From positions 1-59,390 of the forward strand of contig JALUVB010000053.1 of the NCBI GenBank assembly GCA_027021085.1: 59,390 bases of DNA, read 5' to 3'. The position numbers and the translations under genes are program-made. This document shows positions 441 to 54,611 of this stretch, piece by piece. The first letter of the stretch is position 1. Each line of letters opens with the position of its first letter. Source of the DNA: a bacterium (GTDB taxonomy: Bacteria; CAIJMQ01; JAADFP01). Below the pieces are notes generated by a model. That model was not told the origin of the DNA, searched no databases, and worked only from the letters and a program-made list of their open reading frames with translations.

Positions 441-459
441 ATCACATACTCGTTTTGTG

Positions 460-2223: not shown

Positions 2224-2280
2224 TATTTAATTTCTTTTTCACATTTTTAATAATCCTTATATTTTACTTTGCCCCCGATT

Positions 2281-2425: not shown

Positions 2426-2427
2426 TA

Positions 2428-6115: not shown

Positions 6116-6116
6116 T

Positions 6117-8572: not shown

Positions 8573-8585
8573 AAGAAACCGCTAC

Positions 8586-9177: not shown

Positions 9178-9238
9178 AATACCCCTCCTTCTCTATATAT
9201 AAATACCAGGATTTATATATATGTCAACCCCTCTTTAT

Positions 9239-9257
9239 TTACACCCCGGGGGTGTAA
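9239..9257. repeat. 19-nt palindrome TTACACCCCGGGGGTGTAA, copy 1
   Basis: Identical 19-mer to 17384-17402. It lies in the intergenic gap between the radical SAM stop and the vapB promoter region. Confidence 0.7.
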
Positions 9258-9278
9258 TGTTCGGAGAAAAGACCATTA

Positions 9279-10568
9279 CTATCGCCTTTTCCGCATTTTC
9301 CTGAATTCTCTTTTTATCCTTACCAGGTCTCTTATGCTTAGTACATGCTCAAGTAAAGGCGTGTAAGGAAGGGCCCCCAATTTGAGATAAGCGCGCCTGT
9401 AGAACTTTTTTGTCCAGGAGAACCCGCGGGGCAGCAAATTTTCTCTTTTAGCCCGCTCTTCCAGAAGTGTGCCGGGAAAAATTGTCACTCCATAATTTAT
9501 AGCTGCATGGTGACCCCTTTTTCTCACCTGGGTAACAAAGGAGAGCGTTTCCTGTGCATCTTTTTCTGTTTCACCGTAATTTCCCAGCATCATGTAAACT
9601 TCCATGGGCAGGGAAAATTTCTCTCCCCATTTCAATGCTTCCTCTATCTGCTGGTTGGTAATCTTCTTATTCATCAGCTCCCTTACCCGGGGGACAATGC
9701 TCTCCACCCCGAATTTTACCTCAATACAGCCGGTTTCCTTCAGCTTCCTGGTAAACTCCCTGGTCAATAGGTGCGCGCGGGATTTAGCCACGTAGGAAAT
9801 ATTCCTATCCTTTAATCCAGCCAGAATTTTTTCCGCATACTCCTCTTTCAAGCCAAAAGTATCATCCTCTATAACTACGGCATTATAGCCAAACTTCTCC
9901 CTGAGTAAATCAATCTCTTCCAGGACCATTTCCGGTGGTTTAAATTTCACCCGGGGATACATAGCGCCTGCCGCACAGAAGGTACAGCGAAAGGGGCAGC
10001 CCTTGCTGGTAATTATGTTTATTCCCAACGCTCCGTTTCTCAACTTATATCTATATTTTTTTAAATCAAGCACTTCGTACAGAGGAAGGGGTAATGCAGC
10101 CAGGTCCAGGCGAGGGGGAAAACCCGTATCTACTATCTCTGAGCCATCCCGGAAGCAAACTCCGGGGATTTTTGCCATATCTTCCCCGGCCAGAATCTTT
10201 GAAAACGGCTCTTCTCCCTCCCCTTTGATAACAATGTCAACGAAAGGATTGGATACCAGCACCTCTTCAGCAGCAAAGGTGGGATGCGGCCCTCCCACCA
10301 CTATTTTAACTTCAGGCAGTAACCGCTTTATCTCCCTGCTAACCTTAAAAGCAACAAATCTTAAATCAGTATGCATGCTTATCCCCACCACATCCGGGGC
10401 AAAGGTAAATAGCTCTTTTCTGAAATCCATTTCCTCCACGGACATGTCAAACAACCTCACTTCATGTCCTTCCCTGCGCAGGTAGGAGGCAATGTACAAG
10501 AGCCCGATAGGTATCTCGCTTCTCTGGGGCTTCGTATGCTCGGTAGCTATCAAAAACACCTTTTTCAT
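9279..10568 (-). CDS. B12-binding-domain radical SAM protein
   Basis: The N-terminus is a cobalamin-binding-like Rossmann segment. The CxxxCxxC motif is CPFRCTFC. Confidence 0.8.
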   Translation of the reverse strand: MKKVFLIATEHTKPQRSEIPIGLLYIASYLRREGHEVRLFDMSVEEMDFRKELFTFAPDVVGISMHTDLRFVAFKVSREIKRLLPEVKIVVGGPHPTFAAEEVLVSNPFVDIVIKGEGEEPFSKILAGEDMAKIPGVCFRDGSEIVDTGFPPRLDLAALPLPLYEVLDLKKYRYKLRNGALGINIITSKGCPFRCTFCAAGAMYPRVKFKPPEMVLEEIDLLREKFGYNAVVIEDDTFGLKEEYAEKILAGLKDRNISYVAKSRAHLLTREFTRKLKETGCIEVKFGVESIVPRVRELMNKKITNQQIEEALKWGEKFSLPMEVYMMLGNYGETEKDAQETLSFVTQVRKRGHHAAINYGVTIFPGTLLEERAKRENLLPRGFSWTKKFYRRAYLKLGALPYTPLLEHVLSIRDLVRIKREFRKMRKRR

Positions 10569-11707
10569 AATGAATTCCTCAGTCTATCCTTAACAAAATT
10601 TATAATCTTCTGTGCCCTTTTCTCCCAGGAATATTCTCTCACTTCCCTCGCTGCCTCTCTGGCAATTCTCTGGCCAAGTCGCTCGTCTGCCAAAACCTTT
10701 TCAATTCCCTCTTTCAGTGCCAGGGGGTTATCCGGCCTTACCAGAACCGCATTTCTCCCATCCTGCAATATCTCCCTCAAAGTAGGTATATCACTGGCAA
10801 CAACAGGCAAACCTGAGGCCATATATTCAAACATTTTCAGGGGAGATAAATATTTACGGCAACTATCCTCTGTATAAGGAAGCAGCAGCACATCTGAGAT
10901 ACTGAGATATGCAGGAACGCGGGAGGGAGGAACGAATCCCGTAAATAATACATTCTCCAGATCTTTTGTCTCCTCCTTTTTCTTTTTCACCGCTTCCTCA
11001 CTTCCTCCTACAATAAGAAATAAAATATCTCCTGCCAGACGGGCACAACTTACAATCGTCTCCACCCCCTTCTCCCGGTACAAGTGTCCACAATAACAAG
11101 CAACCTTTTTCTCCGGAGGAATACCTATCTCCTCCCTGGTTTTCTCCTTGCTAATACTTATCCCGAATCTCTCTACATCTACCCCGTCAGGAACCAGCAG
11201 AATTTGCTCCTCTGATATTCCTTCCTTTCTATAAAAATCCGAGAGGGAATTGGAGATGAGCACCATCCCCAGGAAGTTTTTAGAAAAACGCCTTTTTAAA
11301 AAAATAGGAAAAGCCCGGCTACTTTTATACTGATGGAACTTGTGTGCCTCAAATACCACAGGCATCCCGAGTCTCAGGCACCAATTGACCGCCCAGAGCA
11401 AGCGGGTATAGACAAGGTCAGGCTTCAGTATCCTGGCATAAAGAGATGCCCAAAGAGCAAAATACTTTTCTTTAAGCTTTTTCCCGGAAAAAGGATAGGG
11501 GAGATGGCAAATTTCAAATTTACGCCCAATCCCGTAATATTCCCAGATATCATCTACCCTTTCTTCTCCCGGAAGGCGGCGAGGGATAATCAACTCAGTC
11601 GATACCCCGGCATTGGCAAATGCTTCGCACATCTTCATCACCTGGATGCTGTTAGCACTTGCTGAAGGGATTTTAGACGAGGCTATATAGCAGATTCTCA
11701 TTTTCAC
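10565..11707 (-). CDS. Glycosyltransferase family 4
   Basis: C-terminal ...SPLKMFEYMASGLPVVASDIPTLREIL... GT-B signature. Confidence 0.8.
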   Translation of the reverse strand: MKMRICYIASSKIPSASANSIQVMKMCEAFANAGVSTELIIPRRLPGEERVDDIWEYYGIGRKFEICHLPYPFSGKKLKEKYFALWASLYARILKPDLVYTRLLWAVNWCLRLGMPVVFEAHKFHQYKSSRAFPIFLKRRFSKNFLGMVLISNSLSDFYRKEGISEEQILLVPDGVDVERFGISISKEKTREEIGIPPEKKVACYCGHLYREKGVETIVSCARLAGDILFLIVGGSEEAVKKKKEETKDLENVLFTGFVPPSRVPAYLSISDVLLLPYTEDSCRKYLSPLKMFEYMASGLPVVASDIPTLREILQDGRNAVLVRPDNPLALKEGIEKVLADERLGQRIAREAAREVREYSWEKRAQKIINFVKDRLRNSL

Positions 11708-11737
11708 TTCTTCACATTATTCCCTATAAATTCTTCT

Positions 11738-12919
11738 TTAATACCCGGTTTGCTTGCTTTGCACCAGCCCATCATAGAGAGCCTCTATCTTTTCCTTTAC
11801 CTCCTCCATACTAAAATCTCTAACCCTTTCTCTTCCCCTCTTACCCATTCTCCTTCTCAGTTTTGTATCTTTTAATAGGGTGATTATCCTGTCTGCTAAA
11901 GCTTTAGAGTCTTTTGGAGGCACCAGGAATCCATTTTCTCCCTCTATAATAATTTCATTTACTCCCGGTATATCCGTTGCCACTATAGATTTTTCTGCTA
12001 CCATTACTTCCAATAGTGCATTGGGAAACCCTTCTCTTTCAGAAGGAAAGGCAAAAACATCTAAAAGGGGTAAAATCTCTGGTATATCTTCCCGGTAACC
12101 GGCAAAAATGACCTGTTTTTCAATACCCAGTTCTTTGGTTAGTCTCTTTATCTCTTCTTCTAAAGCTCTTTTCCCTCCTCCCACAATTAAAAATTTGGTA
12201 TCGGGAAAAACTTTCAATATCTCAGCGGCTGCCTGGAGAAAATATTTGTGCCCTTTTTGAGGCACGATACGGGAAACCATACCTACAACTTTCTCTTGCG
12301 GGGCTATCCCGAATTCTTTCTTTTTATCTTCTATATCCACTCTAACATCATCGAATTCTCCTAAATCAACCCCATTGTAAACAACTTCTATTTTTTTCTC
12401 TGGTATACCCTCTTCCTCAATTAAGAAATTTTTAACCCCCTGGGAGACGGCTATAATCTTATCCGTGAAATTGGCAAGGAATCTATCCATAATCTTCTGC
12501 CTCTTTCCCTTCCAGTTTTCTATATTATGTTCGTGGGCAAGGATTCCCGGAACTCCGGCCAATTTCGCGGCAACTCTTGCCGGGGTATTGGCATCATACA
12601 TATGAGTATGAACTATATCAAATCTACCTTCTCTCATAAATTTCACCAGTTTAAAGAAATTCCTTAACAAATGCACTCTTTTTATCACGATTAAGTGGAC
12701 TGGGAATCCCTCCTTTACAAAAAGGGGCATAAGCTCCCCTAAATTTCTCACACATAAAATGGAAACATCGTATTTCTGGGAATTCAAGCGTGGCAGAAGT
12801 TTTAAAAGCTGCCTTTGCACCCCACCGATGTTAAGATGGCAGATAACCTGGAGCACTCGAATTCTCTTACACCTCCCTGGAAACTCTATCTTTGCACCGG
12901 GCACCTTTCTTAAGTCCAT
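11738..12919 (-). CDS. Glycosyltransferase family 4
   Basis: HLNIGGVQRQL N-terminal motif and FPSEREGFPNALLEVMVAEKSIVATDIPGVNEII. The start codon may lie further downstream. Confidence 0.8.
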   Translation of the reverse strand: MDLRKVPGAKIEFPGRCKRIRVLQVICHLNIGGVQRQLLKLLPRLNSQKYDVSILCVRNLGELMPLFVKEGFPVHLIVIKRVHLLRNFFKLVKFMREGRFDIVHTHMYDANTPARVAAKLAGVPGILAHEHNIENWKGKRQKIMDRFLANFTDKIIAVSQGVKNFLIEEEGIPEKKIEVVYNGVDLGEFDDVRVDIEDKKKEFGIAPQEKVVGMVSRIVPQKGHKYFLQAAAEILKVFPDTKFLIVGGGKRALEEEIKRLTKELGIEKQVIFAGYREDIPEILPLLDVFAFPSEREGFPNALLEVMVAEKSIVATDIPGVNEIIIEGENGFLVPPKDSKALADRIITLLKDTKLRRRMGKRGRERVRDFSMEEVKEKIEALYDGLVQSKQTGY

Positions 12920-12958
12920 TTATAGAAAGAATATGCAGAAAACCCTCCACCTGTCTCG

Positions 12959-13825
12959 TTATTCTAAGGAAAGTTTCAGTAAGCTACGGGTTTCCTCAGG
13001 CGTGGCGATTCTTCTTCCCAACTCCCGGGCAATTCTCACCACTCTTTCAATAAGCATAGTGTTAGTGGCAACAACCTTTTTATCATAGTCATACCAGAGA
13101 TTATCCTCCAATCCTACTCTTACATGCCCTCCCATCACAATAGCAATTGTGTTAATGGGCAATTGAAAAACTCCGACTCCTGCTCCTGCCCACACGGAAT
13201 TTCCCGGGAGATTACGAACCAGATAAGCCAGATCCTCCACTCTCCCTGGCAATGCACCCAGTGAGCCCAGGACGAAATTAAAATAGCAAGGAGGAGTAAT
13301 CAACCCTTCCTTTATTAACCGATGAGCATAATAGAGCATACCAACCTCAAAAATCTCCAATTCCGGCTTTATCCCATTTTCATTCATCGATGAGAGGAGC
13401 CTTCGAATCATCTCAGGCGAGTTGATGCTGGGAGCGCGGGGGAAATTGAAAGAACCCAAGGTTAAGCTTGCCATATCGGGTTTAGCCTTTCCTGTGAGGT
13501 AAAGCACTTCTGACCTTTGGGCAAAAGAGCGAAAAACTCTTCCACTACAGGAAGCACAAATAATTACTCCAGGACACCTTTCTCTTACCTGAGTAAATAT
13601 TTCTCCGTAGGTCTTCGCGCAATAGGTAGGATTACCCTTTTCATCCCGGGCATGGAAATGGATGATAGAAGCTCCCAGTTTGTAACAGTTCTCAGCACAA
13701 GATACGATTTCTTCTATACTTATCGGGACATATGGATTCATCTCCTTGGTGGGAACCATGCCCGTAATGGCAGCATTTATTATCAATCCAGGATATTTAC
13801 GGAGGGGGTACGGTGGAAATTCCAT
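12959..13825 (-). CDS. BKACE family enzyme (3-keto-5-aminohexanoate cleavage enzyme-like, DUF849)
   Basis: N-terminal LIINAAITGMVPTKEMNPYVPISIEEIV...GASIIHFHARDEKGNPT matches the family's characteristic pattern. Confidence 0.7.
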   Translation of the reverse strand: MEFPPYPLRKYPGLIINAAITGMVPTKEMNPYVPISIEEIVSCAENCYKLGASIIHFHARDEKGNPTYCAKTYGEIFTQVRERCPGVIICASCSGRVFRSFAQRSEVLYLTGKAKPDMASLTLGSFNFPRAPSINSPEMIRRLLSSMNENGIKPELEIFEVGMLYYAHRLIKEGLITPPCYFNFVLGSLGALPGRVEDLAYLVRNLPGNSVWAGAGVGVFQLPINTIAIVMGGHVRVGLEDNLWYDYDKKVVATNTMLIERVVRIARELGRRIATPEETRSLLKLSLE

Positions 13826-13830
13826 CTATT

Positions 13831-14310
13831 CTATTCTTCCTCCCATGTTTGAAGGTCAACTTCCAGGGTTGTCCACTCCATAATATCGGGGACTCCAAAC
13901 TCATGCAGTTTAGGTAGTTTTCCCACCACATTATACCCAAAATGTTTTTGATACCACGAAATGCTCTCCGGTCGGTCACTGTTAGTGGTTAACTTTCTTA
14001 TCCCTCTTTTTTTAAGCATTTTCATTCTTCTACGCTGTAGAGCCGTTCCAATACCTATTCCTCTGTAGGCAGGAAGGACCACCATAAGAGTGGTTTTGGC
14101 CCTTTTGTCATCCAGGATCTTATACCCGGCCATGCCTAATACCTTCCCTTTCTTATCTTCTGCCACGAAGATACAACGGTAATCCAACTCCGGCATTTCC
14201 GGAGAGGGAATGTAGTGCATATTAGCCGTTTTCAGTATCTCCATGATTTCAGGCACATCTTCTTTCTTTGCTTTACGAATTTTGAAAATTATATTCTCTT
14301 TCATTTTCAT
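13831..14310 (-). CDS. GNAT family N-acetyltransferase
   Basis: 159 aa, with the acetyl-CoA motif RGIGIGTALQRRRMKMLKKRG. Confidence 0.8.
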   Translation of the reverse strand: MKMKENIIFKIRKAKKEDVPEIMEILKTANMHYIPSPEMPELDYRCIFVAEDKKGKVLGMAGYKILDDKRAKTTLMVVLPAYRGIGIGTALQRRRMKMLKKRGIRKLTTNSDRPESISWYQKHFGYNVVGKLPKLHEFGVPDIMEWTTLEVDLQTWEEE

Positions 14311-15617
14311 CCCCCCTGTTTTACATGGGAAATTATAAACTTTACTTTCCCTGAAGAAGCAGGCGATATTTCTTCAGGAAATTCAAAATGAATCCGAAAG
14401 GAGGAATCGCAATTACTTTGAATCTCCTCCCTTAATTTATCCACACACTCCTCTATGAAATCCGGCCCTTTAACAATCCTTATAGTGAGGTTTTCGAGAG
14501 ACTCCTGCACAACCTGGAACTTACGGACTCCTGGTGTTTGATAAAGAAGCGTCCCAAAATAACCCCATATCCTCTTTCCACGCGGTGATATGATAACATC
14601 ATTGGCTCTTCCCTGCACGCCTTCTATAACCGGAAAACCTCTGCCACATCTACATTCCTCTGTGGAAGAATTAACTACATCACCAACAACATATCTTATA
14701 AAAGGCATTACGTAATTATTTAAATTGGTGACTACTATACCTCCATCGGACATAATCTCCACAATGTTGTTAAAACCCATAATGTGCAAGCCAGAATGTC
14801 TCTCACACTCATGCCCAATAATACTCACTTCTCTGGAACCATATCGGTCAAAAACCGGTGCTTGAAATGCTCTCTCCAGAACCTTTCTCTGGGAAGGGAA
14901 AAGAACCTCAGCGGTAGCTTGTACAGCCCTGGGTCTTATTCTTACTTCCTCTTCTTCCAGAAGATACTGGGCAAGTGTATAAAGAGAATTCACATAACCT
15001 TCAATAAGCAAGGGTTTCCACTCTATAAGCAACTTACTTATTTCCTCAAGTAATGCATTGTCCAGGGTAAAAGTATTTATGAAGAGCAAATTCCCTTTTT
15101 TCACCACCTTTGTTCCATCAGGGCTATCTCTTAGATTCCCCCAGAGTTTGACTCTTCTTTCTCCTTTTTTCAATCCACAAAGAGCGTATGTCCATTTTCT
15201 TGAAGCCTCAGCATAATTCTCGTAAATCTCATCATGATAAAAGTTTACAGGCTCACCTGTTGAACCTCCACTTCGATTAAGGTACTTCTTCCCCCTCCAA
15301 TCTGGACAACATAAATCTATCCACTCCTTCTGAAGAATTTTACGGGTCAAAAGAGGTAATTTTTTCAGGTCACTAATGGATGAAAAGGAATTCAAGGTTA
15401 AACCATATTCAGCAAAGATTTTTTTATAATAGGGAGTTCTATGATAAGCAAAGTGAAGAAGATTTTTTAGCTTTGTCCACTGTATCTCTTCAATTTCTTG
15501 AGAACTCAACCATTGTCCTTTCATAATAGCATTTACATAAAAATCCCGATGCCGAAGTCTCCTGTCAGTTAACATCTTTTTCAGCTTCAGGTATTTCCAG
15601 GCAGACCAGGAGTTCAA
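14307..15617 (-). CDS. Phenylacetate-CoA ligase / CapK-like adenylate-forming enzyme
   Basis: 436 aa, with RSGGSTGEP (P-loop-like AMP-binding motif). The size and layout are typical of PaaK/CapK (F390 synthetase-related) proteins. Confidence 0.65.
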   Translation of the reverse strand: MNSWSAWKYLKLKKMLTDRRLRHRDFYVNAIMKGQWLSSQEIEEIQWTKLKNLLHFAYHRTPYYKKIFAEYGLTLNSFSSISDLKKLPLLTRKILQKEWIDLCCPDWRGKKYLNRSGGSTGEPVNFYHDEIYENYAEASRKWTYALCGLKKGERRVKLWGNLRDSPDGTKVVKKGNLLFINTFTLDNALLEEISKLLIEWKPLLIEGYVNSLYTLAQYLLEEEEVRIRPRAVQATAEVLFPSQRKVLERAFQAPVFDRYGSREVSIIGHECERHSGLHIMGFNNIVEIMSDGGIVVTNLNNYVMPFIRYVVGDVVNSSTEECRCGRGFPVIEGVQGRANDVIISPRGKRIWGYFGTLLYQTPGVRKFQVVQESLENLTIRIVKGPDFIEECVDKLREEIQSNCDSSFRIHFEFPEEISPASSGKVKFIISHVKQGG

Positions 15618-15697
15618 TCTGACTTCCCTCCTCCCTTATAATCCCTCTTTCTTTCAATCACCCAAGACAAACTCACAATCTTTTCACAAGCTGGATA

Positions 15698-16828
15698 TTA
15701 AAAGCCATTTTCTGTCAACTTATTGTAAAGATTGATTGTCCTCTCCAGCATTTTTTCTATGGTGAAAGACTTGATTCTCTCCCTCCCCCTCTCTCCCAGA
15801 CCCCGGGATAATTTTCTATCCTTCAGTAAGCACATTATTTTCTCTGCAAGCAACCACGAATCCTCAGGAGAAACTAAAAACCCGGTCTCCCTGTCTTTAA
15901 CCAATTCAGGATTGCCCCCTACTTTCGTAGCAACCACGGGGAGACCATAAGCCATTGCCTCTAACACAGTAATGGGAAATCCTTCCCTGGCAGAAGAGAG
16001 AACAAAGATATCTATCAGAGGAAGGATTTCCTCTATATCTTTTCTTTCCCCCAGGAAATGGACATTTTTTTCTATTCCCAGCTCTTTAGTGAAAGCCTCC
16101 AGCTCTTTTCTCAAGCTTCCACCTCCCACAATAAGAAAACGCACGCGGGGGAATTTCTTCAGGATTAAGGAAGAGGCCTTGAGAAAAGTTTTATGATCTT
16201 TCTGAGGCTGTAATCTTCCCACCGTGCCCACCAGTGGAGCATCCCCGGGAAGACCTAATTCCCTCCTCTTCTTTTGCTTATCTACTTTTTTCTCAAATCT
16301 ATTTAAATCCACGCCGTTATAAATAACTTCTACCTTTTTCTCCGGTATACCAACCTCTTCCACATAAAACTCTTTCACCCTCCGGGAAACCACGATTATC
16401 CTGTCTGTAAAGCGGGCCAGCATCCTATCCATTCTTCTCTGCGCAGTACCTTTCCAGGAGTCCACATTATGCTCATTGGCAATTATCACCGGCACCCTGG
16501 CAAGCATGGCGGCAATTCTCCCCGGAGTGTTAGCGCGGTATAAATGAGTATGCACAATATGAAATCTTTCTCTTTTTATAAATCTGGCAAGCCTTATAAT
16601 GCCTTTCAAATACTTTAAATCAACATCCATCCTTGCTCTCATTCCGATGTTTATCACCGGAATACCCGCTCTCTCCATCTCATCGGCTAAAATATCTCTT
16701 CTATAAAGCGTGCAAACCTTTACCGCAATCCCCTTCTCTTTAAGACGGGGTAAGAGGGAAATTAAAGTTTTCTCCACCCCTCCCATTTCCAGGGAAGGAA
16801 GTACCCTGAGAACCTTGATTTTACTCAC
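15698..16828 (-). CDS. Glycosyltransferase family 4
   Basis: Paralogue of 11738-12919 (LEMGGVEKTL..., SSAREGFPITVLEAMAYGLPVVATKVGGNPELV). Confidence 0.85.
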   Translation of the reverse strand: MSKIKVLRVLPSLEMGGVEKTLISLLPRLKEKGIAVKVCTLYRRDILADEMERAGIPVINIGMRARMDVDLKYLKGIIRLARFIKRERFHIVHTHLYRANTPGRIAAMLARVPVIIANEHNVDSWKGTAQRRMDRMLARFTDRIIVVSRRVKEFYVEEVGIPEKKVEVIYNGVDLNRFEKKVDKQKKRRELGLPGDAPLVGTVGRLQPQKDHKTFLKASSLILKKFPRVRFLIVGGGSLRKELEAFTKELGIEKNVHFLGERKDIEEILPLIDIFVLSSAREGFPITVLEAMAYGLPVVATKVGGNPELVKDRETGFLVSPEDSWLLAEKIMCLLKDRKLSRGLGERGRERIKSFTIEKMLERTINLYNKLTENGF

Positions 16829-17370
16829 AATGCTGGCAAAATCTCCCGCAGACTTTTTATCACTTCGATTCTGGCTCCCGGCTCCTTAGCAAGAAGAAGG
16901 TTGTCCAATTTTTCTTTCTCTTCCTCATCGCCCAGCAAAAGAAACCCCTGCTTTATACCCGCTTTCATCCCTGCTTCCACATCCCTTACCCTGTCGCCCA
17001 CACAAAGAGAGGAGGCAAGGTCTATATCCCACTCTTCTGCCGCCTGCAAAAATAAGCCGGGCATTGGTTTCCGACAGGAACAGTCATCCCGGGGAGAATG
17101 GGGACAGAAGTAAAAAGCATCAATCTCTGCCCCTTTTCTGTGTAAGATATCCTTAATACTCTGATTTACTTTTTCCACTTCCTGGCTAGCGAAGTAACCT
17201 CTCCCTACCCCTGATTGGTTACTGACCACAATTACCAGGTAGCCTTTCTCCCTGGCTTTTTTGATCAATTCCACCACCCCCTCTAAAATTCTTATCTTTT
17301 CCACCTCGTGTAAGAAGCCTACCTCTTCGTTTATCGTGCCATCCCTGTCTAAAAAAAGCGCCTTTCTCAT
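16825..17370 (-). CDS. gmhB: D-glycero-D-manno-heptose 1,7-bisphosphate phosphatase-like HAD-IIIA phosphatase
   Basis: MRKALFLDRDGTIN (DxDGT motif) and CSCRKPMPG. I take the start at the internal ATG (17368-17370), because the longer track ORF would overlap the upstream glycosyltransferase by 85 nt. Confidence 0.7.
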   Translation of the reverse strand: MRKALFLDRDGTINEEVGFLHEVEKIRILEGVVELIKKAREKGYLVIVVSNQSGVGRGYFASQEVEKVNQSIKDILHRKGAEIDAFYFCPHSPRDDCSCRKPMPGLFLQAAEEWDIDLASSLCVGDRVRDVEAGMKAGIKQGFLLLGDEEEKEKLDNLLLAKEPGARIEVIKSLREILPAL

Positions 17371-17383
17371 AAACCCAAATTGC

Positions 17384-17402
17384 TTACACCCCGGGGGTGT
17401 AA
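17384..17402. repeat. 19-nt palindrome TTACACCCCGGGGGTGTAA, copy 2
   Basis: Identical to 9239-9257. It lies between the glycosyltransferase stop (17409) and the gmhB start (17370). Confidence 0.7.
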
Positions 17403-17408
17403 AATTGG

Positions 17409-18503
17409 TTAGCCTGCACCCTTGTCCACAAGTTCTCTGTAAACTGCCAGGGTGCCTTCTACCATTCTCTCCGGCAAAAAGTTTTGTACCCATTTCTTGC
17501 CGGCCAGGGAAAAGCCGGCCATTTTTGTTTTATCCTTGAGAAGTTTGATAACCGCGCCACTCAGAGCCTCAGGGTCACGCGGAGGAACCAGTATCCCCGT
17601 CTCACCATCCCTCACCACTTCCGGTATGCCTCCTGCCAGGGTACTCACCACCGGAATTCCCATATACTGCGCCTCCAGCAGAATACTGCCCAGTCCCTCC
17701 ATATGAGAAGGCAGGACAAAAACATCCAGGATGGAAAGTATCTCCGGGATATCCTCCCGGAAACCGGTGAATATGACTTGCTCTGTTATTCCCAGCTTTT
17801 TAGCTTCTTTTTTTAGGTGGTTTCCTAGTTCTCCCTTGCCTACCACAAAAAACGTTGCCTGGGGAAACTCTTTCAAAATAGCAGGGATAGCTCTCAGCAG
17901 ATAAATGTGCCCCTTGTGGTCAGTGAGATAAGCAATGGTGCCTATAACAGGATGCCCGGGAGAAAATTCCCTGTAGAGATAGGAATTATTCCCTCTCTTT
18001 TCCAGTCTGTCCGGGTCAAAGGCGCTGGGGACATAGCGTATTCTTTCCTCCGGTATCCCTATGTCTTTAAGTATTTTCTCTATGGCATGGGATATGGCAA
18101 TAATAATATCTACCAATCTGCGGTATTTCCAGCGCGAAAGCATCCCCCGGGGAGGGAAATCAACCCTGCGCGTTACCACTATCTTTCTACCGGCTATTCT
18201 CCCCGCAAGTCCTGCCAGTGAATGTGCGTGGGAGGTGTGGGCATGCAGAAGGTCTATTTTCTTTTCCCTTATCCACTTCACAATAACATTTATAGCCACC
18301 AGGTCTAATTCACTTTTAAAATTTATCTCTTTTACCTGGATGCCCAATTCTTTGGCTCTTTTTCCCAGGGTGCTTTCGGGGGGAGAAATCAGGAACGATT
18401 TTACTCCTTTCTCCTTCAGCCCCTTCAAAAGCAAATAAACCTGGTTCTCTCCTCCCCGCCAACCGTATTCAGTATGCAGATGAAGAATCCTCAAGTAGTT
18501 CAT
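17409..18503 (-). CDS. Glycosyltransferase family 4
   Basis: PSHMEGLGSILLEAQYMGIPVVSTLAGGIPEVV signature. Confidence 0.85.
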   Translation of the reverse strand: MNYLRILHLHTEYGWRGGENQVYLLLKGLKEKGVKSFLISPPESTLGKRAKELGIQVKEINFKSELDLVAINVIVKWIREKKIDLLHAHTSHAHSLAGLAGRIAGRKIVVTRRVDFPPRGMLSRWKYRRLVDIIIAISHAIEKILKDIGIPEERIRYVPSAFDPDRLEKRGNNSYLYREFSPGHPVIGTIAYLTDHKGHIYLLRAIPAILKEFPQATFFVVGKGELGNHLKKEAKKLGITEQVIFTGFREDIPEILSILDVFVLPSHMEGLGSILLEAQYMGIPVVSTLAGGIPEVVRDGETGILVPPRDPEALSGAVIKLLKDKTKMAGFSLAGKKWVQNFLPERMVEGTLAVYRELVDKGAG

Positions 18504-18712
18504 AGTAAAAATTAGATTTTCAGGTAAGCATAAAATATAAAACTAAGTTGTGAGCCATCCTAATACCTCGCTCTTTTTAAACTTTAAACACAAAAGGTAA
18601 ATCAAGGAAACCAGGATACTTTTTCCCGACTTATATCGGGAGAAGACAGCCGGGTAAGGAATTAAATCTACCCTCACTGCTACCTAATGATTTCGTATCC
18701 TGCCCGTTCAAC
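18504..18712. repeat. Degenerate member of the mosaic intergenic repeat family
   Basis: It contains GTTGTGAGCCATCC and the hairpin CCCGA-N6-TCGGG, both also seen at 23215-23250 and 44225-44250. Similarity is weak. Confidence 0.3.
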
Positions 18713-19558
18713 TCATTCCAGGTCAATAACATCCACCCTATCCAGGGAAAATTCTACTACAAACATTTTGTTATTCTTGCGGTCTATGGTAATACCCCGG
18801 GGAGAGAAAAACGTGCCAGGGAAGGTAGATACCCGGCCATTCTTGTCCAACCGGAATATCCTGCCGGTGGAGAAATCGGTAAAATAGAGGTTGCCGTATT
18901 TATCGTAATCCACATCCTCCAGGTAACGATAATAAGTTCTTTTTTCCAGTAACCGGTGGAACTTTCCCCCTTTTTTGTATTCCCAGATATTACTTCCCCG
19001 GGAAGAGACGATAACAAGCCTGCCGTCAGGCAAAACCGCAAGACCAGTAGGTCCCTTGAGCAGGGGAGAATGCAAGAACTTACTCACTATAATTCCTTTC
19101 CCCAGGGTTACCTGGAAGATTGCATTCGCAGCTGCATCCGAAACCAGAAGCTCTCCCCTCCGGGTAAAAACGAGGTCTACCAGGTACTTAGCTCCATAGG
19201 GGGCCAGGTTTATATTCTGCACATTTATTCTCTTTTTTAGGTCGTATCCTCTGATAGTATCGATATCTGCCACATAAAGGATACCATCCTTTATAGCCAT
19301 CCCTTTGGGAGCATCAAGTTCATAGTCATTAAGGGCACCATCCAGAAAATGCAGGGTTACTACCTTAAAATCCGGGGTTATACGAGAGATAAAACCATTA
19401 TCATCCCTGGCCACAGGCGCACCATTCACATTGGAAACGTAGATATAATCCGTAGCAGGGTCAACAATTACCCGGTTCGGATTTTTGAAATCACGCAGGT
19501 AAAAAGCAAAAAGCAAGGCAGGAATAAGGAGGAAAACCAACAGAGAAATGTTTTTCAT
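18713..19558 (-). CDS. Secreted beta-propeller protein (NHL / SMP-30-like repeats)
   Basis: N-terminal signal peptide MKNISLLVFLLIPALLFAF, and repeated ...G.LYV.D... blades. Confidence 0.55.
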   Translation of the reverse strand: MKNISLLVFLLIPALLFAFYLRDFKNPNRVIVDPATDYIYVSNVNGAPVARDDNGFISRITPDFKVVTLHFLDGALNDYELDAPKGMAIKDGILYVADIDTIRGYDLKKRINVQNINLAPYGAKYLVDLVFTRRGELLVSDAAANAIFQVTLGKGIIVSKFLHSPLLKGPTGLAVLPDGRLVIVSSRGSNIWEYKKGGKFHRLLEKRTYYRYLEDVDYDKYGNLYFTDFSTGRIFRLDKNGRVSTFPGTFFSPRGITIDRKNNKMFVVEFSLDRVDVIDLE

Positions 19559-23150: not shown

Positions 23151-23509
23151 TACAGGTTTGACACCAAATATACAGGAAGAAACGAAAATACAACAGCAAC
23201 AAAAACAGGGTTGTGAGTCATCCCCGATGTCCATCGGGCTCGACGTATGTCGGGGCGCCTATTCCCCCATGTTAGACTATAGACATCAGACTTTAGACAT
23301 TAGACGGGAAAGACACATGATATGGGGAACCAACTCACCATTCACTGCTCACTACCTCCCAGTCTATAGTCCAAGAGTTGTGAGTTGTTAGTTGCGAGTT
23401 GTTAGTTCCACCTGTGCCCCCGCCTGTATTTTGCCTTCTGGATCTCCCCTTTCCCAGTCTACAGTCTATGGTCTAAGGTCTATGGTCTAAAGTCTAAAAT
23501 TCTCCTTTC
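23151..23509. repeat. Mosaic intergenic repeat region R1 (heptamer-tandem modules)
   Basis: Tandem heptamers GAGTTGT and GTCTAWR, including the 146-bp unit at 23355-23500 that is shared with 24288-24412 and 43980-44103. Confidence 0.8.
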
Positions 23510-23989
23510 TCACTGCTTTTTTGTCCACTTCCTTCCCACTTCACGCCACTGCTCACCGAAGCGCTTGAATTCTACCCGGAGCAAATAACCCGGGTAAAGC
23601 CCGAATATGTTAAGGTAAGCCCGTTTAGCCGCAGGATCCACCCTTCTGAAAACTACTATTTTACTCCTTGTATCTCCCGGCTTCAGGTTTCCTATCCAGA
23701 TAAATTTTTCTTTTATTCCCAGCTTGTCACTTATATCCTTTCTGAGCCAGGGGGCAGGGTGAGGACGATACTTCTTGCCCGTATCAGTGGTCAGGGTAAA
23801 AGCTTCTCCCACCTTTACAGGTTTTCTCCCTGCATTGCGGAACCTTACTATGAAAACGCTATAGACCTTATCATTAAAAAGACCCTCTGCTTTGTAATTA
23901 GGATAAAAATCTATTTTTATCTGGAGGTCCGCCCCCAGGAGTTGTGCAAACAGTACCCCCAAAAACAGAATCAACCACCACTTTCTCAT
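23510..23989 (-). CDS. Hypothetical secreted protein
   Basis: Signal peptide MRKWWLILFLGVLFAQLLGA. I recognise no family. Confidence 0.6.
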   Translation of the reverse strand: MRKWWLILFLGVLFAQLLGADLQIKIDFYPNYKAEGLFNDKVYSVFIVRFRNAGRKPVKVGEAFTLTTDTGKKYRPHPAPWLRKDISDKLGIKEKFIWIGNLKPGDTRSKIVVFRRVDPAAKRAYLNIFGLYPGYLLRVEFKRFGEQWREVGRKWTKKQ

Positions 23990-24049
23990 AGTTTAAGTTT
24001 ATCATAAGGAAGCTTCAGAAAGAAGTTCGGGGGGGAAGCTAACCGGGCG

Positions 24050-24450
24050 AGGTGAATCCTGTATCCTGCATTTCCTCTTCCAGTCTAATGTCTATAGTCT
24101 GAAGTCTATGGTCTATGTGCTCTCCTGGATGCCTGCTTTCGCAGGCATGACAGGTAGGGCTGGTTTCTTGTCATTCTTGCAAATCCTAACCTCCTTCAAA
24201 AGCTATCCCAGGATACCAGGATTACCAAGATACCGGGATACTAGGAAACCGATTCACTGTTCACTGTTTACTATTTACTGCTCACCACCTCCCAGTCTAT
24301 AGTCCAAGAGTTGTGAGTTGTTAGTTGCGAGTTGCCAGTTCCACCTGCTTCTCCGCCTTTATCCTGCTTCTCCCGGTCTATAGTCTAAGGTCTATGGTCT
24401 AAAGTCTAAAATATCCCCCTCGCTACTCGCTACCCGCTACCTTCTCAGCA
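24050..24450. repeat. Mosaic intergenic repeat region R2
   Basis: Modules in order: GTCTAWR heptamers; hairpin ATGCCTGC-TTTC-GCAGGCAT (24129-24148); CTTGTCATTCTTGCAAATCCTAACC...; a GGATACC-type 8-9-mer run; RTTYACT heptamers; GAGTTGY heptamers; GTCTAWR heptamers; CYCGCTA heptamers. Confidence 0.85.
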
Positions 24451-24470
24451 GGGCCTCGGTAGCATAATAA

Positions 24471-24499
24471 TTGAAAGAAAAAGAATTTTAGTTTAAAAT
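24471..24499 (+). promoter_or_regulatory. Putative promoter of the NSS transporter gene (predicts a leaderless or near-leaderless mRNA)
   Basis: TTGAAA (24471-24476), a 17-nt spacer, then TAAAAT (24494-24499). The ATG is at 24509 and there is no Shine-Dalgarno in between. Confidence 0.45.
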
Positions 24500-24508
24500 C
24501 TTTTCGTA

Positions 24509-33512: not shown

Positions 33513-33811
33513 CTACCCATCCATCTAAAGTCTATGCTCTAAGGTCCACCCCTCGCTACCCGCTACTAACTACTCACTACCGTCTACTCGCTACTGTTTA
33601 CTATTCACTGTTTACTATTTCCCCAGTCTATAGTCTAAAGTCTAAGGTCTATAGTCTATGTGCTCTCCTGGATGCCTGCTTTCGCAGGCATGACAGGTGG
33701 GCAGGATACCAACTCCCTGCTTACTGTCCCTTGTTCTGTATCTTTTATCCTGCATCCCCCTCTCCCAGTCTAAGGTCTACAGTCTATAGTCTAAAGTCTA
33801 TGGTCTAACAT
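33513..33811. repeat. Mosaic intergenic repeat region R3
   Basis: A tract of about 70 nt with uninterrupted 7-nt periodicity (CTCGCTA CCCGCTA CTAACTA CTCACTA CCGTCTA CTCGCTA CTGTTTA CTATTCA ...), GTCTAWR heptamers, and the hairpin at 33672-33691. Confidence 0.85.
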
Positions 33812-43788: not shown

Positions 43789-44298
43789 ATAATAGACTTT
43801 AGACCATAGACTATAGACTGTAGACTGGGAGATAGTGAACAGTAAATAGTAAACAGTAAGCAGTGAACAGTGAATCGGTTTCCTGGTATCCCGGTATCTT
43901 AGTATCCTGGTATCCTGCCCACCTGTCATGCCCGCCTGCTCCCGGAGGGCGGGCAGGCCTGCGAAAGCAGGCATCCAGGATTTTAGACTTTAGACCATAG
44001 ACCTTAGACTATAGACTGGGAGAAGCAGGATAAAGGCGGAGGAGCAGGTGGAACTGGCAACTCGCAACTAACAACTCACAACTCTTGGACTATAGACTGG
44101 GAGATAGTGAGCTGTAAATAGTAAGCAGTGAACGGTAGTGAGTAGCGAGTAGATAGTAGCGGGTAGTTAGGGGAAATATGAGAGAGGTGTGGGGTGATAG
44201 GCAGAACTGGCCACTCCGGACTCCCGAGATATATCGGGACTCACAACTCTGAAATCAGTAAGCAAGAATTGGAAGTTGAGAGGAGAGTTTTGCAAGGA
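43789..44298. repeat. Mosaic intergenic repeat region R4
   Basis: Reverse-orientation copies of the GTCTAWR, RTTYACT, GGATACC, GAGTTGY and CGCTAC modules. It contains IR arm 43909-43988 and the 124-bp unit at 43980-44103. Confidence 0.85.
43909..43988 (-). repeat. Left arm of a perfect 80-bp inverted repeat
   Basis: A base-by-base comparison shows it is the exact reverse complement of 45742-45821. The track ORFs 43651-43974(-) and 45756-45989(+) share the same first 22 aa (MPAFAGLPALREQAGMTGGQDT), which confirms this. Confidence 0.9.
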
Positions 44299-53309: not shown

Positions 53310-54611
53310 TTATAGCCTTCCTGTCCTGCTCACTTCTTCCGGGTGGGCAATGTGCCCCTTTATGGCGGAAGCAGCTGCTACTGCCGGAGAAGCAAGATAT
53401 ACTTCACTTTCCGGATGCCCCATTCTCCCGATAAAGTTCCGGTTTGTGGTGGCTACGCATCTTTCTCCCTTGGCCAGGATGCCCATATGCCCTCCTAAGC
53501 AGGGTCCGCAGGTAGGAGGGGAGACTACCCCTCCGGCTTCTACAAACACCTGGAGCCAGCCTTTGGTCAGAGCTTCCAGGTAAATTTTCTGTGTGGCAGG
53601 AATTACTATGAGCCGTACTCCGGGATGGACCTTTTTCCCCCGCAAAATTTCTGCAGATATTTTTAGATCTTCACTTCTTCCGTTTGTACAGGAGCCTATA
53701 ACTACCTGGTCAATTTTGACATGCGTGGAATCTTTTACTTTTCTCACATTTGAAGGAAGGTGGGGAAAGGCAACTAAAGGCTCAATTTTTCCCGCGTCAA
53801 ATTCAAGTATCCTTTCGTATTCGGCCTCTTTATCGCTGTAATACGGGGTAAAAGGCCTATTACGCGTGTTTACCTCTTCTATGAACTGCCTGGTTTTCTT
53901 ATCGGGAGCAATGATGCCGTTTTTTGCTCCCGCCTCGATAGCCATATTGCAAATGGTAAGCCTGCCTTCTATGGATATGTTTCCTATCGCTTCCCCGCTA
54001 ATTTCCAGGGATTTATAATTTGCTCCGTTTACGCCCAGCTTCCCGATAAGAAAAAGAATAATATCCTTGGCACTTACCCATGGTTTGAGGCTTCCGTAAA
54101 AAATTACCTTTATGCTCTCAGGAACCCTCAGCCAGATTTTACCCGTAAGCATGGCAAAGGCCAGGTCTGTGCTGCCTACGCCGGTGGAAAAGGCTCCCAG
54201 TGCTCCGTAAGTACAGGTATGGGAATCAGCACCTATTATGAGTTCTCCGGGAAGGACCAATCCTTCCTCGGGAAGAAGAGCATGCTCTACTCCCACTTTA
54301 CCCACTTCGTAGTAATGTTCTATCTTAAAGCTGCGGGCAAATTCGCGTAGTGTTTTGCATTGTTCTGCAGAAGCTATGTCTTTATTCGGCGTGAAGTGGT
54401 CGGGTACAAGGGCGATTTTCCCCCGGTCAAAGACTCTTTGCTCTCTCAATTCCTTTATCTTTTTAATGGACAAGGGAGCCGTGATATCGTTCCCCAGGGC
54501 AAGATCGATATCTGCCAGGATAAATTCTCCCGGGGAAACTTCCTTTCTCCCGCTGTGAGCGGCCAGTATCTTTTCCGTAATGGTTTGCGGTTTACTCTTC
54601 ATACTGTTCAA
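53310..54611 (-). CDS. leuC: Aconitase-family dehydratase large subunit (3-isopropylmalate dehydratase or homoaconitase, LeuC/HacA type)
   Basis: [12 protein letters not shown]..., [15 protein letters not shown], and Cys ligand motifs ([15 protein letters not shown]). Confidence 0.8.

What the first reader, a model, noticed from the sequence alone, without database searches (positions are those of the whole stretch)
23151..24470. Dispersed mosaic intergenic repeats built from tandem heptanucleotides (STRR-like)
At least six intergenic gaps are filled with the same set of modules in varying order and orientation: 23151-23509, 24050-24450, 33513-33811, 43789-44298, 45590-45995 and 52897-53309. 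A weaker seventh lies at 18504-18712.

Most modules are short tandem arrays with a strict 7-nt period:
- GTCTATA GTCTAAG GTCTATG GTCTAAA GTCTAAA (24377-24411);
- ATTCACT GTTCACT GTTTACT ATTTACT GCTCACC (24252-24286);
- GAGTTGT GAGTTGT TAGTTGC GAGTTGC CAGTTCC (24308-24342);
- CTCGCTA CTCGCTA CCCGCTA (24419-24439).

In 33571-33640 the 7-nt register runs uninterrupted for about 10 units while the unit sequence drifts. Another module repeats GGATACC-like 8-9-mers. Heptanucleotide tandem repeats of this kind are known as STRR sequences in heterocystous cyanobacteria; one of those, CAACAGT, resembles the RAACAGT unit seen here in reverse orientation. A concatenation of several different heptamer arrays into mobile mosaic blocks is something I cannot place. 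The tracts are candidates for slipped-strand variation, protein-binding arrays or recombination hot spots.
Basis: partly seen in the sequence, partly recalled or inferred. Interest (0 to 1): 0.65.

Follow-up and report, generated by a model that had tools for sequence, protein, structure and literature searches.

The report
Mosaic intergenic repeats of heptamer arrays
Six gaps between housekeeping genes of an uncultured bacterium are filled by copies of one family of non-coding mosaic repeats, built from 7-base tandem arrays and small hairpins; this is a real, lineage-specific example of a known class of bacterial repeats, and no function has been shown.

Summary
Period-7 arrays fill six intergenic gaps; lag-7 identity is 0.37-0.53 and no shuffle out of 2000 reaches it. 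Their density is about 20 times that of 1.2 Mb of control DNA, and only at period 7. The seventh gap is marginal.

The arrays are not independent microsatellites. They are sectors of one composite element family of 150-380 bp with a nearly fixed module order, conserved linkers, an octamer array and nested REP-like palindromes. Whole blocks recur in both orientations at 87-96% identity.

Adjacent arrays share one 7-nt phase, up to 15 units across three unit types. Indels between copies are exact unit multiples. This points to dispersal as blocks plus unit-wise slippage.

The family is lineage-restricted. It occurs in five metagenome contigs and at the orthologous leuC end of one relative. It is absent from several other relatives, where the matching gaps are short or missing.

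Controls removed two tempting ideas. GTCTAWR arrays are not special across phyla, and the 'TAGAC after the stop codon' pattern is not general. No mobilising enzyme, Rfam family or annotated counterpart was found.

Verdict: a new variant within the known heptamer-repeat (LSSR/STRR) and mosaic-element (BIME-like) classes. Interest is moderate.

The parts
23210..23500 (.). Gap 1 element (between the S20 3' end and the ORF159 3' end). H3 palindromes 23223-23254; inverted A array (TAGAC orientation) 23271-23305; short B/D 23334-23354; 'a' 23362-23375; C [GAGTTGY]n 23375-23409; linker L1 23406-23456; A [GTCTAWR]n 23457-23498. The inverted left arm pairs with the right block.
   Evidence: Module map; TRF; long hairpin fold, z = -4.1; block 23344-23414 matches 24277-24347 at 96%.
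24055..24441 (+). Gap 2 element (between the divergent ORF159 and SNF transporter starts), order A-H1-J-H4-E-B-a-C-L1-A-D. A 24083-24117; H1 hairpin 24127-24146; J 24146-24158; H4 block 24159-24208; E octamer array 24203-24250; B [TTYACTR]n 24253-24287; a 24295-24308; C 24308-24342; L1 24339-24375; A 24376-24410; D [CYCRCTA]n 24419-24439.
   Evidence: 24259-24412 matches the reverse of 43980-44133 (154 bp, 96%) and 24125-24214 matches 53124-53212 (93%). Another assembly lacks 24069-24305.
33513..33811 (+). Gap 3 element (between the RluB-like start and the HflX stop), order a'-D-B-A-H1-J-(e,b,l1 relics)-A. D 33552-33593; B 33590-33617; A 33626-33660; H1 33670-33689; J 33689-33701; A 33768-33809. 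The last A array ends 2 nt before the HflX stop codon.
   Evidence: 15 units in one 7-nt phase from 33552; stop-codon context.
43789..44250 (-). Gap 4 element, the fullest copy (between the Xer-like recombinase stop and the EndoQ stop). Read on the minus strand: K/H3 (44172-44249), D 44136-44170, B 44105-44132, a 44084-44097, C 44050-44084, L1 44017-44053, A 43982-44016, H1 43957-43976, H2 palindrome 43930-43954, J 43918-43930, E 43877-43915, B 43833-43874, A 43791-43825.
   Evidence: Differs from metagenome contig L462 only by three 7-nt indels and 7 mismatches. Reproduced exactly in ENA contig k141_243415.
45594..45950 (.). Gap 5 element (between the divergent EndoQ and GT2 starts). Inverted A 45598-45618; then on the plus strand A 45721-45748, H1 45754-45773, H2 45776-45800, J 45800-45812, E 45815-45837, B 45840-45881, short D 45888-45901, B 45905-45946.
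   Evidence: 45720-45884 matches the reverse of 43830-44010 (87%). Indels against gap 4 are 7 nt in A and 8 nt twice in E. This gap is absent in relatives, where EndoQ abuts pyrC.
52960..53311 (+). Gap 6 element (between the DUF58 start and the LeuC stop). H2-like palindrome 52966-53002; D 53022-53042; H4' hairpin 53050-53075; B 53095-53115; H1 53126-53145; H4 block 53146-53212; E relic 53218-53232; B 53242-53276; A 53284-53311. The last A unit overlaps the LeuC stop.
   Evidence: A TAGAC array sits at the same place after leuC in the 84% relative (L527, L528).
18606..18640 (+). Relic only: one E-like unit pair (18606-18620) and an H3-type palindrome CCCGACTTATATCGGG (18625-18640). It is not a heptamer tract.
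   Evidence: lag-7 identity is marginal (40 of 2000 shuffles).

Best explanation
These are copies of one lineage-specific family of non-coding, non-autonomous composite intergenic repeats, 150-380 bp long.

Each copy is a 7-nt-phased tract that has differentiated into sub-arrays: D = CYCRCTA, B = TTYACTR, A = GTCTAWR, C = GAGTTGY. It is joined to an octamer array (E) and interrupted by small nested REP-like palindromes (H1, H2, H3, H4) and fixed linkers.

Shown:
- Blocks are duplicated to unrelated intergenic sites in both orientations.
- The sub-modules H2, H4 and a-C-L1 are present or absent as discrete insertions or deletions.
- Arrays gain and lose whole units.
- The family is shared with a few related uncultured genomes and is missing from others.

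Inferred:
- Unit gain and loss come from replication slippage or unequal exchange.
- Blocks spread by recombination or by a trans-acting enzyme encoded elsewhere in the genome.
- The elements are largely selfish or neutral filler that survives where it does least harm, at gene 3' ends and between divergent or convergent genes.
- Side effects are possible: hairpin formation at convergent gene ends, changed promoter spacing, and homology for rearrangements.
For: - Periodicity and restriction to intergenic gaps.
- Blocks with non-repetitive linkers shared between gaps (154 bp at 96%, 181 bp at 87%, 90 bp at 93%, 71 bp at 96%), in both orientations.
- Fixed grammar, with the fullest copy reading D-B-a-C-L1-A-H1-H2-J-E-B-A.
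- One 7-nt phase running across different unit types.
- Indels match the local unit size. Gap 4 against L462 has three 7-nt indels, all inside arrays. Gap 4 against gap 5 has a 7-nt indel in A and two 8-nt indels in the octamer array. L496 shows 7 and 21 nt..
- Discrete presence or absence of H2 (27 nt inside the H1 stem), H4 (about 50 nt) and a-C-L1 (86 nt).
- The same family at 80-92% identity in JGI contigs L451, L462, L485, L496 and L503.
- Orthologous retention after leuC in the 84% relative.
- Absence from relatives L521-L526, L529 and L531, with short or missing gaps where the window has gaps 1, 5 and 6.
- Another assembly of the same organism lacks 237 bp of modules and diverges inside a D array.
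- No Rfam family, even at E <= 1.
- In other phyla, heptamer arrays show no strand preference relative to neighbouring genes, are intergenic 117 to 3, and lie near 3' ends twice as often as near 5' ends, which suggests tolerated rather than strand-specific functional sequence.
Against: - No mobilising enzyme is encoded in the window; there is no transposase, RAYT or stand-alone GIY-YIG. The rest of the genome could not be examined.
- No terminal inverted repeats with target-site duplications were found for the blocks.
- The high similarity of copies between genomes (80-92%) could also reflect selection.
- In the window, four of four terminal A arrays follow a stop codon in the same sense orientation. 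That is unexpected for neutral filler, although n = 4 and the pattern does not generalise.
- The strain-level indel could be an assembly error.
- No expression or binding data exist.
Confidence: 0.7

Rival explanations
1. The heptamer arrays are functional multi-site binding platforms for a protein with a footprint of about 7 nt, either on single-stranded RNA or DNA (cold-shock or S1-type OB-fold proteins) or on duplex DNA. They would tune transcription, translation or mRNA stability of the flanking genes.
For: - Such roles were proposed for TAACTGA repeats, and CspB binds heptamer repeats one protein per unit.
- Deleting heptamer repeats altered recO and recF promoter behaviour in Nostoc.
- Copies are conserved at 80-92% between genomes.
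- The arrays are strongly strand-asymmetric, with 12.8% G on the element strand.
- Four of four terminal A arrays follow stop codons in one orientation.
Against: - Module orientation relative to flanking genes is inconsistent: sense upstream in gaps 2 and 5, antisense in gaps 3 and 6.
- The arrays lie 57-70 nt or more from the SNF and GT2 start codons, not at the ribosome-binding site as in Beggiatoaceae.
- There is no orientation bias in 115 loci of other phyla.
- Unit sequence drifts freely within a tract.
- Close relatives do without the elements at the same genes.
Confidence: 0.14
2. The blocks are true MITEs or REPIN-like elements, moved by a dedicated enzyme encoded elsewhere in the genome: a RAYT or IS200/IS605-type Y1 transposase acting on the GTAG-rich D strand next to hairpins, or an IS transposase that uses inverted A arrays as ends.
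For: - The reverse strand of D is a run of GTAG motifs lying beside REP-like hairpins, in the window at 53022-53075 and in L451, L485 and L496.
- Gaps 1 and 5 have inverted A arrays flanking 150-230 bp.
- H2 is a discrete 27-nt palindromic insertion.
- REPs form mosaic BIMEs, and REPINs are moved by RAYTs.
Against: - No such gene lies in 59 kb.
- Modules are co-oriented rather than in the inverted REP doublets that define REPINs.
- No target-site duplications were recognised.
- The H1 palindrome occurs mostly alone in other metagenome contigs and shows no consistent partner gene; a GIY-YIG gene is nearby in only 2 of 118 loci.
Confidence: 0.1
3. The arrays arose independently in each gap by local slippage, as ordinary microsatellites. 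Their similarity would be convergent, driven by a mutational bias toward particular heptamers.
For: Heptamer arrays of arbitrary units are widespread. A shuffled-unit control is as common as GTCTAWR in genomes and more common in viral contigs. Heptamer-rich loci carry 113 different units.
Against: The shared non-repetitive linkers, nested palindromes and fixed module order over 150-380 bp, at 87-96% identity between gaps and 80-92% between genomes, cannot be convergent.
Confidence: 0.03
4. The repeats are assembly artefacts, from collapsed or chimeric reads.
For: Short-read contigs of the same organism end or deviate inside the repeats.
Against: Gaps 4-6 are identical in an independent MEGAHIT contig, and Logan contigs agree up to their ends. 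Related but diverged copies occur in several unrelated metagenomes and assemblers.
Confidence: 0.02

Closest known systems
Long simple sequence repeats of heptamer unit (LSSR; Mrazek et al. 2007, as summarised in PMC4679880 and PMC4692102)
   Same: Tandem 7-nt units, intergenic, over-represented only at period 7, patchy among genomes, and length-variable by whole units. All of these features were seen here.
   Different: Here several unit types share one phase and are welded, together with palindromes and linkers, into blocks that are copied as units. LSSR surveys treat the arrays as separate loci.
Cyanobacterial STRR sequences (Mazel et al. 1990, from memory; mentioned in PMC4692102)
   Same: Dispersed tandem heptanucleotides in intergenic DNA, with several unit families per genome.
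   Different: The units differ: STRR1-3 are CCCCAGT, TTGGTCA and CAACAGT (from memory). The host is not a cyanobacterium on present evidence; the nearest named homologues, at 55-60%, are from Ratteibacteria, Omnitrophota and WOR-3. Similarity of 6 of 7 bases to STRR3 is not meaningful.
Bacterial interspersed mosaic elements (BIMEs) built from REP/PU palindromes (PMC3116915, ref. 14 therein)
   Same: Intergenic mosaic of a small set of motifs with a grammar, imperfect palindromes, optional motifs, and occurrence at gene 3' ends and between convergent genes.
   Different: BIMEs are built from alternating inverted palindromic units. Here the palindromes are co-oriented minor parts and most of the element is heptamer array. 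No RAYT was found nearby.
Geobacter metallireducens multicopy elements with four or five tandem heptanucleotides (PMC2700814)
   Same: A dispersed multicopy element whose core is a short heptamer array (49 and 16 copies), outside cyanobacteria, of unknown function.
   Different: The Geobacter elements have a single unit type, a fixed copy number of 4-5, are GC-rich and also occur inside genes. Here there are several unit types, variable copy number, and the elements are strictly intergenic.
TAACTGA direct repeats of Beggiatoaceae, cyanobacteria and Bacteroidetes (PMC4679880)
   Same: Intergenic heptamer arrays. In some Bacteroidetes the same intergenic region holds several different heptamer arrays, and relatives lack them at the same site.
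   Different: A different unit. The Beggiatoaceae repeats sit within a few nucleotides upstream of start codons in sense orientation, which is not the case here.
Small dispersed repeats (SDR) nested in other repeats in Nostoc (Elhai et al. 2008; cited in PMC3116915; paper not held, details from memory)
   Same: Very small palindromic elements of about 21-27 nt inserted into other repeats. H2 here is a 27-nt palindrome inserted into the H1 stem.
   Different: No sequence relationship was tested, and the host lineage is different.

Membership tests
Heptameric LSSR class | Tandem repeats with a 7-nt unit, longer than chance allows | tested here: met
   TRF arrays of 3-13 units; 0 of 2000 shuffles reach the observed lag-7 identity in six gaps.
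Heptameric LSSR class | Over-representation specific to period 7 and mainly intergenic | tested here: met
   21.9 against 1.08 arrays per 100 kb, with other periods at background. All strong arrays lie in gaps.
Heptameric LSSR class | Length variation by whole units between copies or strains | tested here: met
   Indels of 7, 14 and 21 nt in heptamer arrays and 8 nt in the octamer array.
Cyanobacterial STRR | Unit sequences STRR1-3 (CCCCAGT, TTGGTCA, CAACAGT; recalled from memory) | tested here: not met
   The units here are GTCTAWR, TTYACTR, GAGTTGY and CYCRCTA. Single non-tandem CCCAGT motifs head each A array, and RAACAGT matches 6 of 7 bases only.
Cyanobacterial STRR | Host is a (heterocystous) cyanobacterium | tested here: not met
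   Best TopA and SNF matches in 185,579 species genomes are 50-57% identical and non-cyanobacterial. Named EndoQ homologues are from Ratteibacteria, Omnitrophota and WOR-3. The exact taxon is unresolved.
BIME / REP | Imperfect palindromic units of 20-40 nt | tested here: met
   H1, H2, H3 and H4'. A compensatory G-C to A-T change in the H1 stem is seen in L462.
BIME / REP | Palindromic units in alternating orientation separated by defined linkers | tested here: not met
   All modules of a block are co-oriented, and palindromes are a minor part of it.
BIME / REP | Associated RAYT (Y1 transposase) gene in the genome | not testable with these tools
   None in the 59-kb window. The rest of the genome is not available.
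MITE | Terminal inverted repeats and target-site duplication | tested here: inconclusive
   Inverted A arrays flank parts of gaps 1 and 5 only. The fullest copies have no inverted ends and no duplication was recognised. GTCTATAGTC on both sides of C-L1 could equally be array sequence.
TAACTGA-type translational repeats | Array within a few nt upstream of a start codon, in sense orientation | tested here: not met
   The arrays before the SNF and GT2 start codons end 57-70 nt upstream of them, and several arrays instead abut stop codons.
Known structured RNA (Rfam) | Match to a curated covariance model | tested here: not met
   Only tRNAs at gathering threshold. Nothing at E <= 1 in the gaps.

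The most novel reading that the evidence does not exclude
Richness in heptamer arrays is a discrete, trans-determined trait. A dedicated activity, present only in certain lineages across phyla, would create and maintain 7-nt-phased tracts. It could be a polymerase or primase with a 7-nt slippage step, or an oligomerising nucleic-acid-binding protein with a 7-nt footprint. On this reading, the composite blocks here are that system's mobile cassettes: the phase coherence across different units and the position of the arrays at stop codons would be functional, and the nested palindromes would be its recognition sites.
Probability: 0.1. Interest if true: 0.75.

Novelty: new variant of a known kind. 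Interest (0 to 1): 0.38.

Why it matters
Why bacteria accumulate repeats of exactly seven bases, and only in some lineages, has been an open question since the 2007 surveys.

This locus offers a compact natural system. A single phased tract can be seen differentiating into several unit types, being interrupted by nested palindromes, being copied as blocks, and gaining or losing single units between copies. Close relatives lack it.

There are practical consequences too. Such elements break short-read assemblies, mark synteny breakpoints, and give rise to spurious ORF calls.

If a binding protein or a mobilising enzyme were found, it would link the heptamer-SSR and REP/BIME fields.

Tried and rejected
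1. 'GTCTAWR arrays are a special, horizontally shared signal.' The 4-unit pattern hit at least 115 loci in many phyla. However, a shuffled unit (TGCTAWR) hit at least 120. In viral contigs two shuffled units gave 18 and 38 hits against 5 for GTCTAWR. Rejected.

2. 'TAGAC arrays are a post-stop signal.' The pattern is 4 of 4 in the window but 21 against 23 in other phyla. Rejected as a general rule.

3. 'A GIY-YIG nuclease mobilises the H1 palindrome.' The idea came from L504, but only 2 of 118 H1 loci have such a gene. Dropped.

4. The H1 22-mer as a family marker. It is widespread on its own: 99 of 118 loci have no heptamer module nearby. It is not specific to this family.

5. The exact 30-mer linker in JGI metagenomes: no hit.

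6. Annotated counterparts in plasmid and phage records: none.

7. Known RNA families: none.

8. Global RNA structure of the fullest element: not significant, z = -2.2 and -1.3. Only gap 1 forms a long hairpin.

9. Sigma-70-like promoter inside the B-a junction (TTTACT, 18 nt, TATAGT). It is only a 9 of 12 consensus match, and it points in inconsistent directions relative to the genes. Not pursued.

10. Taxonomic placement by TopA and SNF: no close genome. The taxon is left unresolved.

11. The Elhai 2008 paper could not be read.
Full report
**Observation**

Tandem Repeats Finder places period-7 arrays, with 14- and 21-nt super-periods, in six intergenic gaps: 23151-23509, 23990-24508, 33513-33811, 43789-44298, 45529-46002 and 52897-53309. 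Outside these gaps it reports only two very short, low-scoring period-7 runs (3183-3201, 19501-19516) and one weak tract inside a gene (55722-55760). The identity of each base with the base 7, 14 or 21 positions away is 0.37-0.53, against about 0.25 at other lags. In 2000 shuffles of each gap, none reaches the observed lag-7 value.

The quoted units and coordinates are correct to within one base. The 8-mer GGATACC-type array is real. The uninterrupted register with a drifting unit is real, running 15 units in one phase from 33552.

Period-7 arrays occur at 21.9 per 100 kb in the window. In 1.2 Mb of DNA fetched through TopA and SNF homology, which is unbiased with respect to repeats, the figure is 1.08 per 100 kb. 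Periods 4-6 and 8-12 are at background. The six gaps make up 4.3% of the window.

The arrays are not assembly artefacts. An ENA MEGAHIT contig reproduces gaps 4, 5 and 6 with one mismatch in 7 kb, Logan contigs agree up to their ends, and diverged copies exist in other metagenomes.

**Anatomy**

A self-comparison shows that the arrays are parts of larger shared blocks that include non-repetitive sequence:
- 24259-24412 equals the reverse complement of 43980-44133 (154 bp, 96%).
- 43830-44010 equals the reverse of 45720-45884 (181 bp, 87%).
- 24125-24214 equals 53124-53212 (90 bp, 93%).
- 23344-23414 equals 24277-24347 (96%).

Mapping the modules gives a nearly fixed grammar, written here on the G-poor strand (12.8% G in the arrays):
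- D = [CYCRCTA]n
- B = [TTYACTR]n
- a = 1.5 units of A
- C = [GAGTTGY]n
- L1 = a 36-nt linker
- A = [GTCTAWR]n, always led by YCCCAG
- H1 = the hairpin GGATGCCTGC-TTTC-GCAGGC
- H2 = a 27-nt palindrome
- J = CATGACAGGTGGG
- H4 = a block of about 50 nt
- E = an octamer array, [GGATACCR]n
- H3 = CCCGA-N6-TCGGG

The fullest copy (gap 4, minus strand) reads D-B-a-C-L1-A-H1-H2-J-E-B-A. The other gaps are sub-strings or cyclic continuations of this order, and whole blocks are inverted. A multiple alignment of nine copies shows a colinear core, H1-J-E-B-A. H2 is present or absent inside the H1 stem, H4 is present or absent after J, and a-C-L1 (86 nt) is present or absent inside an A array.

Adjacent arrays share one 7-nt phase. 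D to B to A in gap 3, B to A in gaps 4 and 6, and B to a to C in gap 2 are bridged by whole 7-nt units. The 'different arrays' are therefore best read as sectors of one periodic tract that diversified by mutation and local amplification.

**Dynamics**

Indels between the best-matching copies equal the local unit size:
- Gap 4 and metagenome contig L462 differ by 7 mismatches and three indels of exactly 7 nt, each inside an A or B array.
- Gap 4 and gap 5 differ by a 7-nt indel in A and two 8-nt indels in the octamer array.
- L496 differs by 7 and 21 nt.
- Gap 1 against gap 2 shows a 14-nt indel.

This is the signature of slippage or unequal exchange by whole units.

One ENA contig of the same organism (99.9% identical over 4.7 kb) lacks window 24069-24305, which is 237 bp covering A-H1-J-H4-E-B-a. 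At its other end it leaves the window inside a D array and continues into unrelated sequence. This is either real polymorphism and rearrangement at the repeats, or a chimeric assembly.

**Distribution**

The window is an ordinary chromosomal stretch. It encodes S20, UvrC, MurJ, HflX, MiaA, TopA, a Xer-like recombinase, endonuclease Q, LeuC, PurH, five tRNAs and a glycosyltransferase cluster. It encodes no transposase, RAYT or stand-alone GIY-YIG gene.

No close genome was found among 185,579 species representatives; the best matches were TopA at 50% and SNF at 57%. Named EndoQ homologues at 55-60% identity come from Ratteibacteria, Omnitrophota, WOR-3 and Bipolaricaulota. The taxon remains unresolved, but it is not cyanobacterial.

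The composite family, with its linkers, was found only in five JGI metagenome contigs (L451, L462, L485, L496, L503), at 80-92% identity and with the same grammar. L462 reads H1-J-H4-E-B-A-D, which is gap 2 without a-C-L1.

Among relatives found through LeuC and EndoQ:
- The 84% LeuC relative (two independent assemblies) has a 5-unit TAGAC array plus a degenerate B tract directly after the leuC stop, as in the window.
- A 72% EndoQ relative has one 5-unit TAGAC array after a transketolase stop.
- Relatives at 74-79% LeuC identity (L521-L526), the 85% EndoQ relative (L529, 7.1 kb) and the 68% relative (L531, 20 kb) have no period-7 arrays.
- In L529, the ORF159 homologue is followed by a plain 88-bp gap and EndoQ abuts pyrC. 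In the 78-79% relatives, leuC overlaps a convergent gene.

The window's gaps 1, 5 and 6 are therefore lineage-specific expansions that coincide with synteny breaks.

**Controls that changed the picture**

- The A-type pattern (GTCTAWR x4) hit at least 115 loci in many phyla. A shuffled unit hit at least 120, and in viral contigs two shuffled units outnumbered it, 18 and 38 against 5. The wide occurrence of this unit is therefore not special.
- What is general is the period. Around any anchored heptamer array, arrays of other units run at 10-15 per 100 kb, while periods 6 and 8 stay at background. At least 113 different units are in use.
- The H1 22-mer occurs in at least 118 metagenome contigs, but 99 of these have no heptamer module nearby. 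H1 belongs to a widespread class of small palindromes that this family has incorporated.
- In the window, four terminal A arrays lie 0-13 nt after a stop codon and read TAGAC in the gene's sense. In 115 loci from other phyla the two orientations are equal, 21 against 23. There the arrays are intergenic 117 to 3 and lie near 3' ends twice as often as near 5' ends. This fits tolerated sequence rather than a strand-specific signal.

**Structure and known families**

Only gap 1 folds significantly better than shuffled sequence (z = -4.1). An inverted A/C arm pairs with the forward C-L1-A block between two convergent genes. The fullest element is not significantly structured beyond H1 and H2. Rfam gives nothing, even at E <= 1. 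Plasmid and phage collections hold no counterpart.

**Interpretation**

The best-supported reading (about 0.7) is a lineage-restricted family of non-autonomous composite intergenic repeats. A 7-nt-phased tract has differentiated into several unit types, picked up nested palindromes, and been copied as blocks to unrelated gaps. It keeps changing by whole-unit slippage.

Block dispersal, nesting and unit indels are shown. The copying mechanism (recombination or a trans-acting enzyme) and the neutrality of the elements are inferred.

A role as multi-site protein-binding platforms remains possible, at about 0.14. Others have proposed this for TAACTGA repeats and for Nostoc heptamers. It is not favoured here because of the inconsistent orientation, the drifting units and the absence of the elements from close relatives. 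A RAYT- or transposase-driven mechanism (about 0.1) cannot be tested without the genome.

**Comparison with what is known**

Over-representation of heptameric SSRs is established, as are their patchy distribution, whole-unit length variation and inverted pairs. Geobacter metallireducens has dispersed elements built on four or five heptamers. Some Bacteroidetes intergenic regions hold several different heptamer arrays that relatives lack. BIMEs set the precedent for mosaic intergenic elements with a grammar.

The locus meets every feature of the heptamer-LSSR class. It fails the defining features of STRR (units, host), BIME (alternating palindromic units) and the TAACTGA system (position at start codons).

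What is new is the combination. Several unit types sit in one phase, welded with an octamer array, linkers and nested palindromes into blocks that are copied as units and conserved across a few related genomes, in a poorly known non-cyanobacterial lineage. I rate it a new variant of a known kind, of moderate interest.

Noticed in passing
It belongs to a wider class of CTGGATTCCCGC-TTTC-GCGGGAATGAC-type palindromes whose translations (WIPAFAGMT, LDSRFRGND, VMPAKAGIQ) look like common spurious ORF products.
   Followed up: partly
L504:1-1156: A 1.2-kb contig carries about ten H1-type palindromes packed around a small GIY-YIG nuclease-like ORF (L504:290-580). Only 2 of 118 H1 loci have such a gene nearby, so no general association was found.
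   Followed up: yes
window 1-4758: GC content is 32.7% here against about 46% in the rest of the window. The stretch holds an unknown 587-aa ORF (460-2223) and an N6-methylase fused to a type I specificity domain (2428-4758). It is probably a horizontally acquired restriction-modification island.
   Followed up: partly
window 2224-2427: This intergenic gap has an 11-bp perfect stem (GCGGGTATCTG ... CAGATACCCGC, about 2299-2361) and an H1-like small hairpin (GCCTGCGATAGCAGG, 2383-2397). There is no Rfam match, and the fold is not significant overall (z = -1.7).
   Followed up: partly
window 5006-18503: This polysaccharide-type cluster is rich in GT4 glycosyltransferases and also holds a radical-SAM/B12 enzyme and a PIN-domain protein (8586-8981, with a 297-bp gap upstream). 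It carries none of the repeat elements, although it contains gaps of 247 and 297 bp.
   Followed up: no
L001:1-360 and L218:1-260 (ENA contig k141_585512): The same short-read contig departs from the window at both of its ends, each time inside a repeat module. It lacks 24069-24305, and after 33580 it runs into unrelated sequence. This is either a rearranged strain or a chimeric assembly.
   Followed up: partly
window 44299-45528 versus L529 and L531: The endonuclease Q gene sits in a pyrB-PMT_2-pyrC-endoQ operon in relatives. In the window it is cut off from that operon and flanked on both sides by repeat-filled gaps, and the ORF159 homologue also has different neighbours. The repeats therefore mark synteny breakpoints.
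   Followed up: partly
window 55722-55760: A weak CT-rich period-7 tract (CACTTCC-like, 65% matches) lies inside the purH coding region. It is probably chance or a coding-sequence feature.
   Followed up: no
L527:1-375: The first 375 bases of this relative's contig are G/T-rich and almost free of C. This looks like a sequencing or assembly artefact.
   Followed up: no
L222-L282 (IMG/VR contigs): Heptamer arrays of arbitrary units also occur in viral contigs, including several giant-virus MAG contigs. Other period-7 arrays lie nearby, at 22.8 per 100 kb.
   Followed up: no
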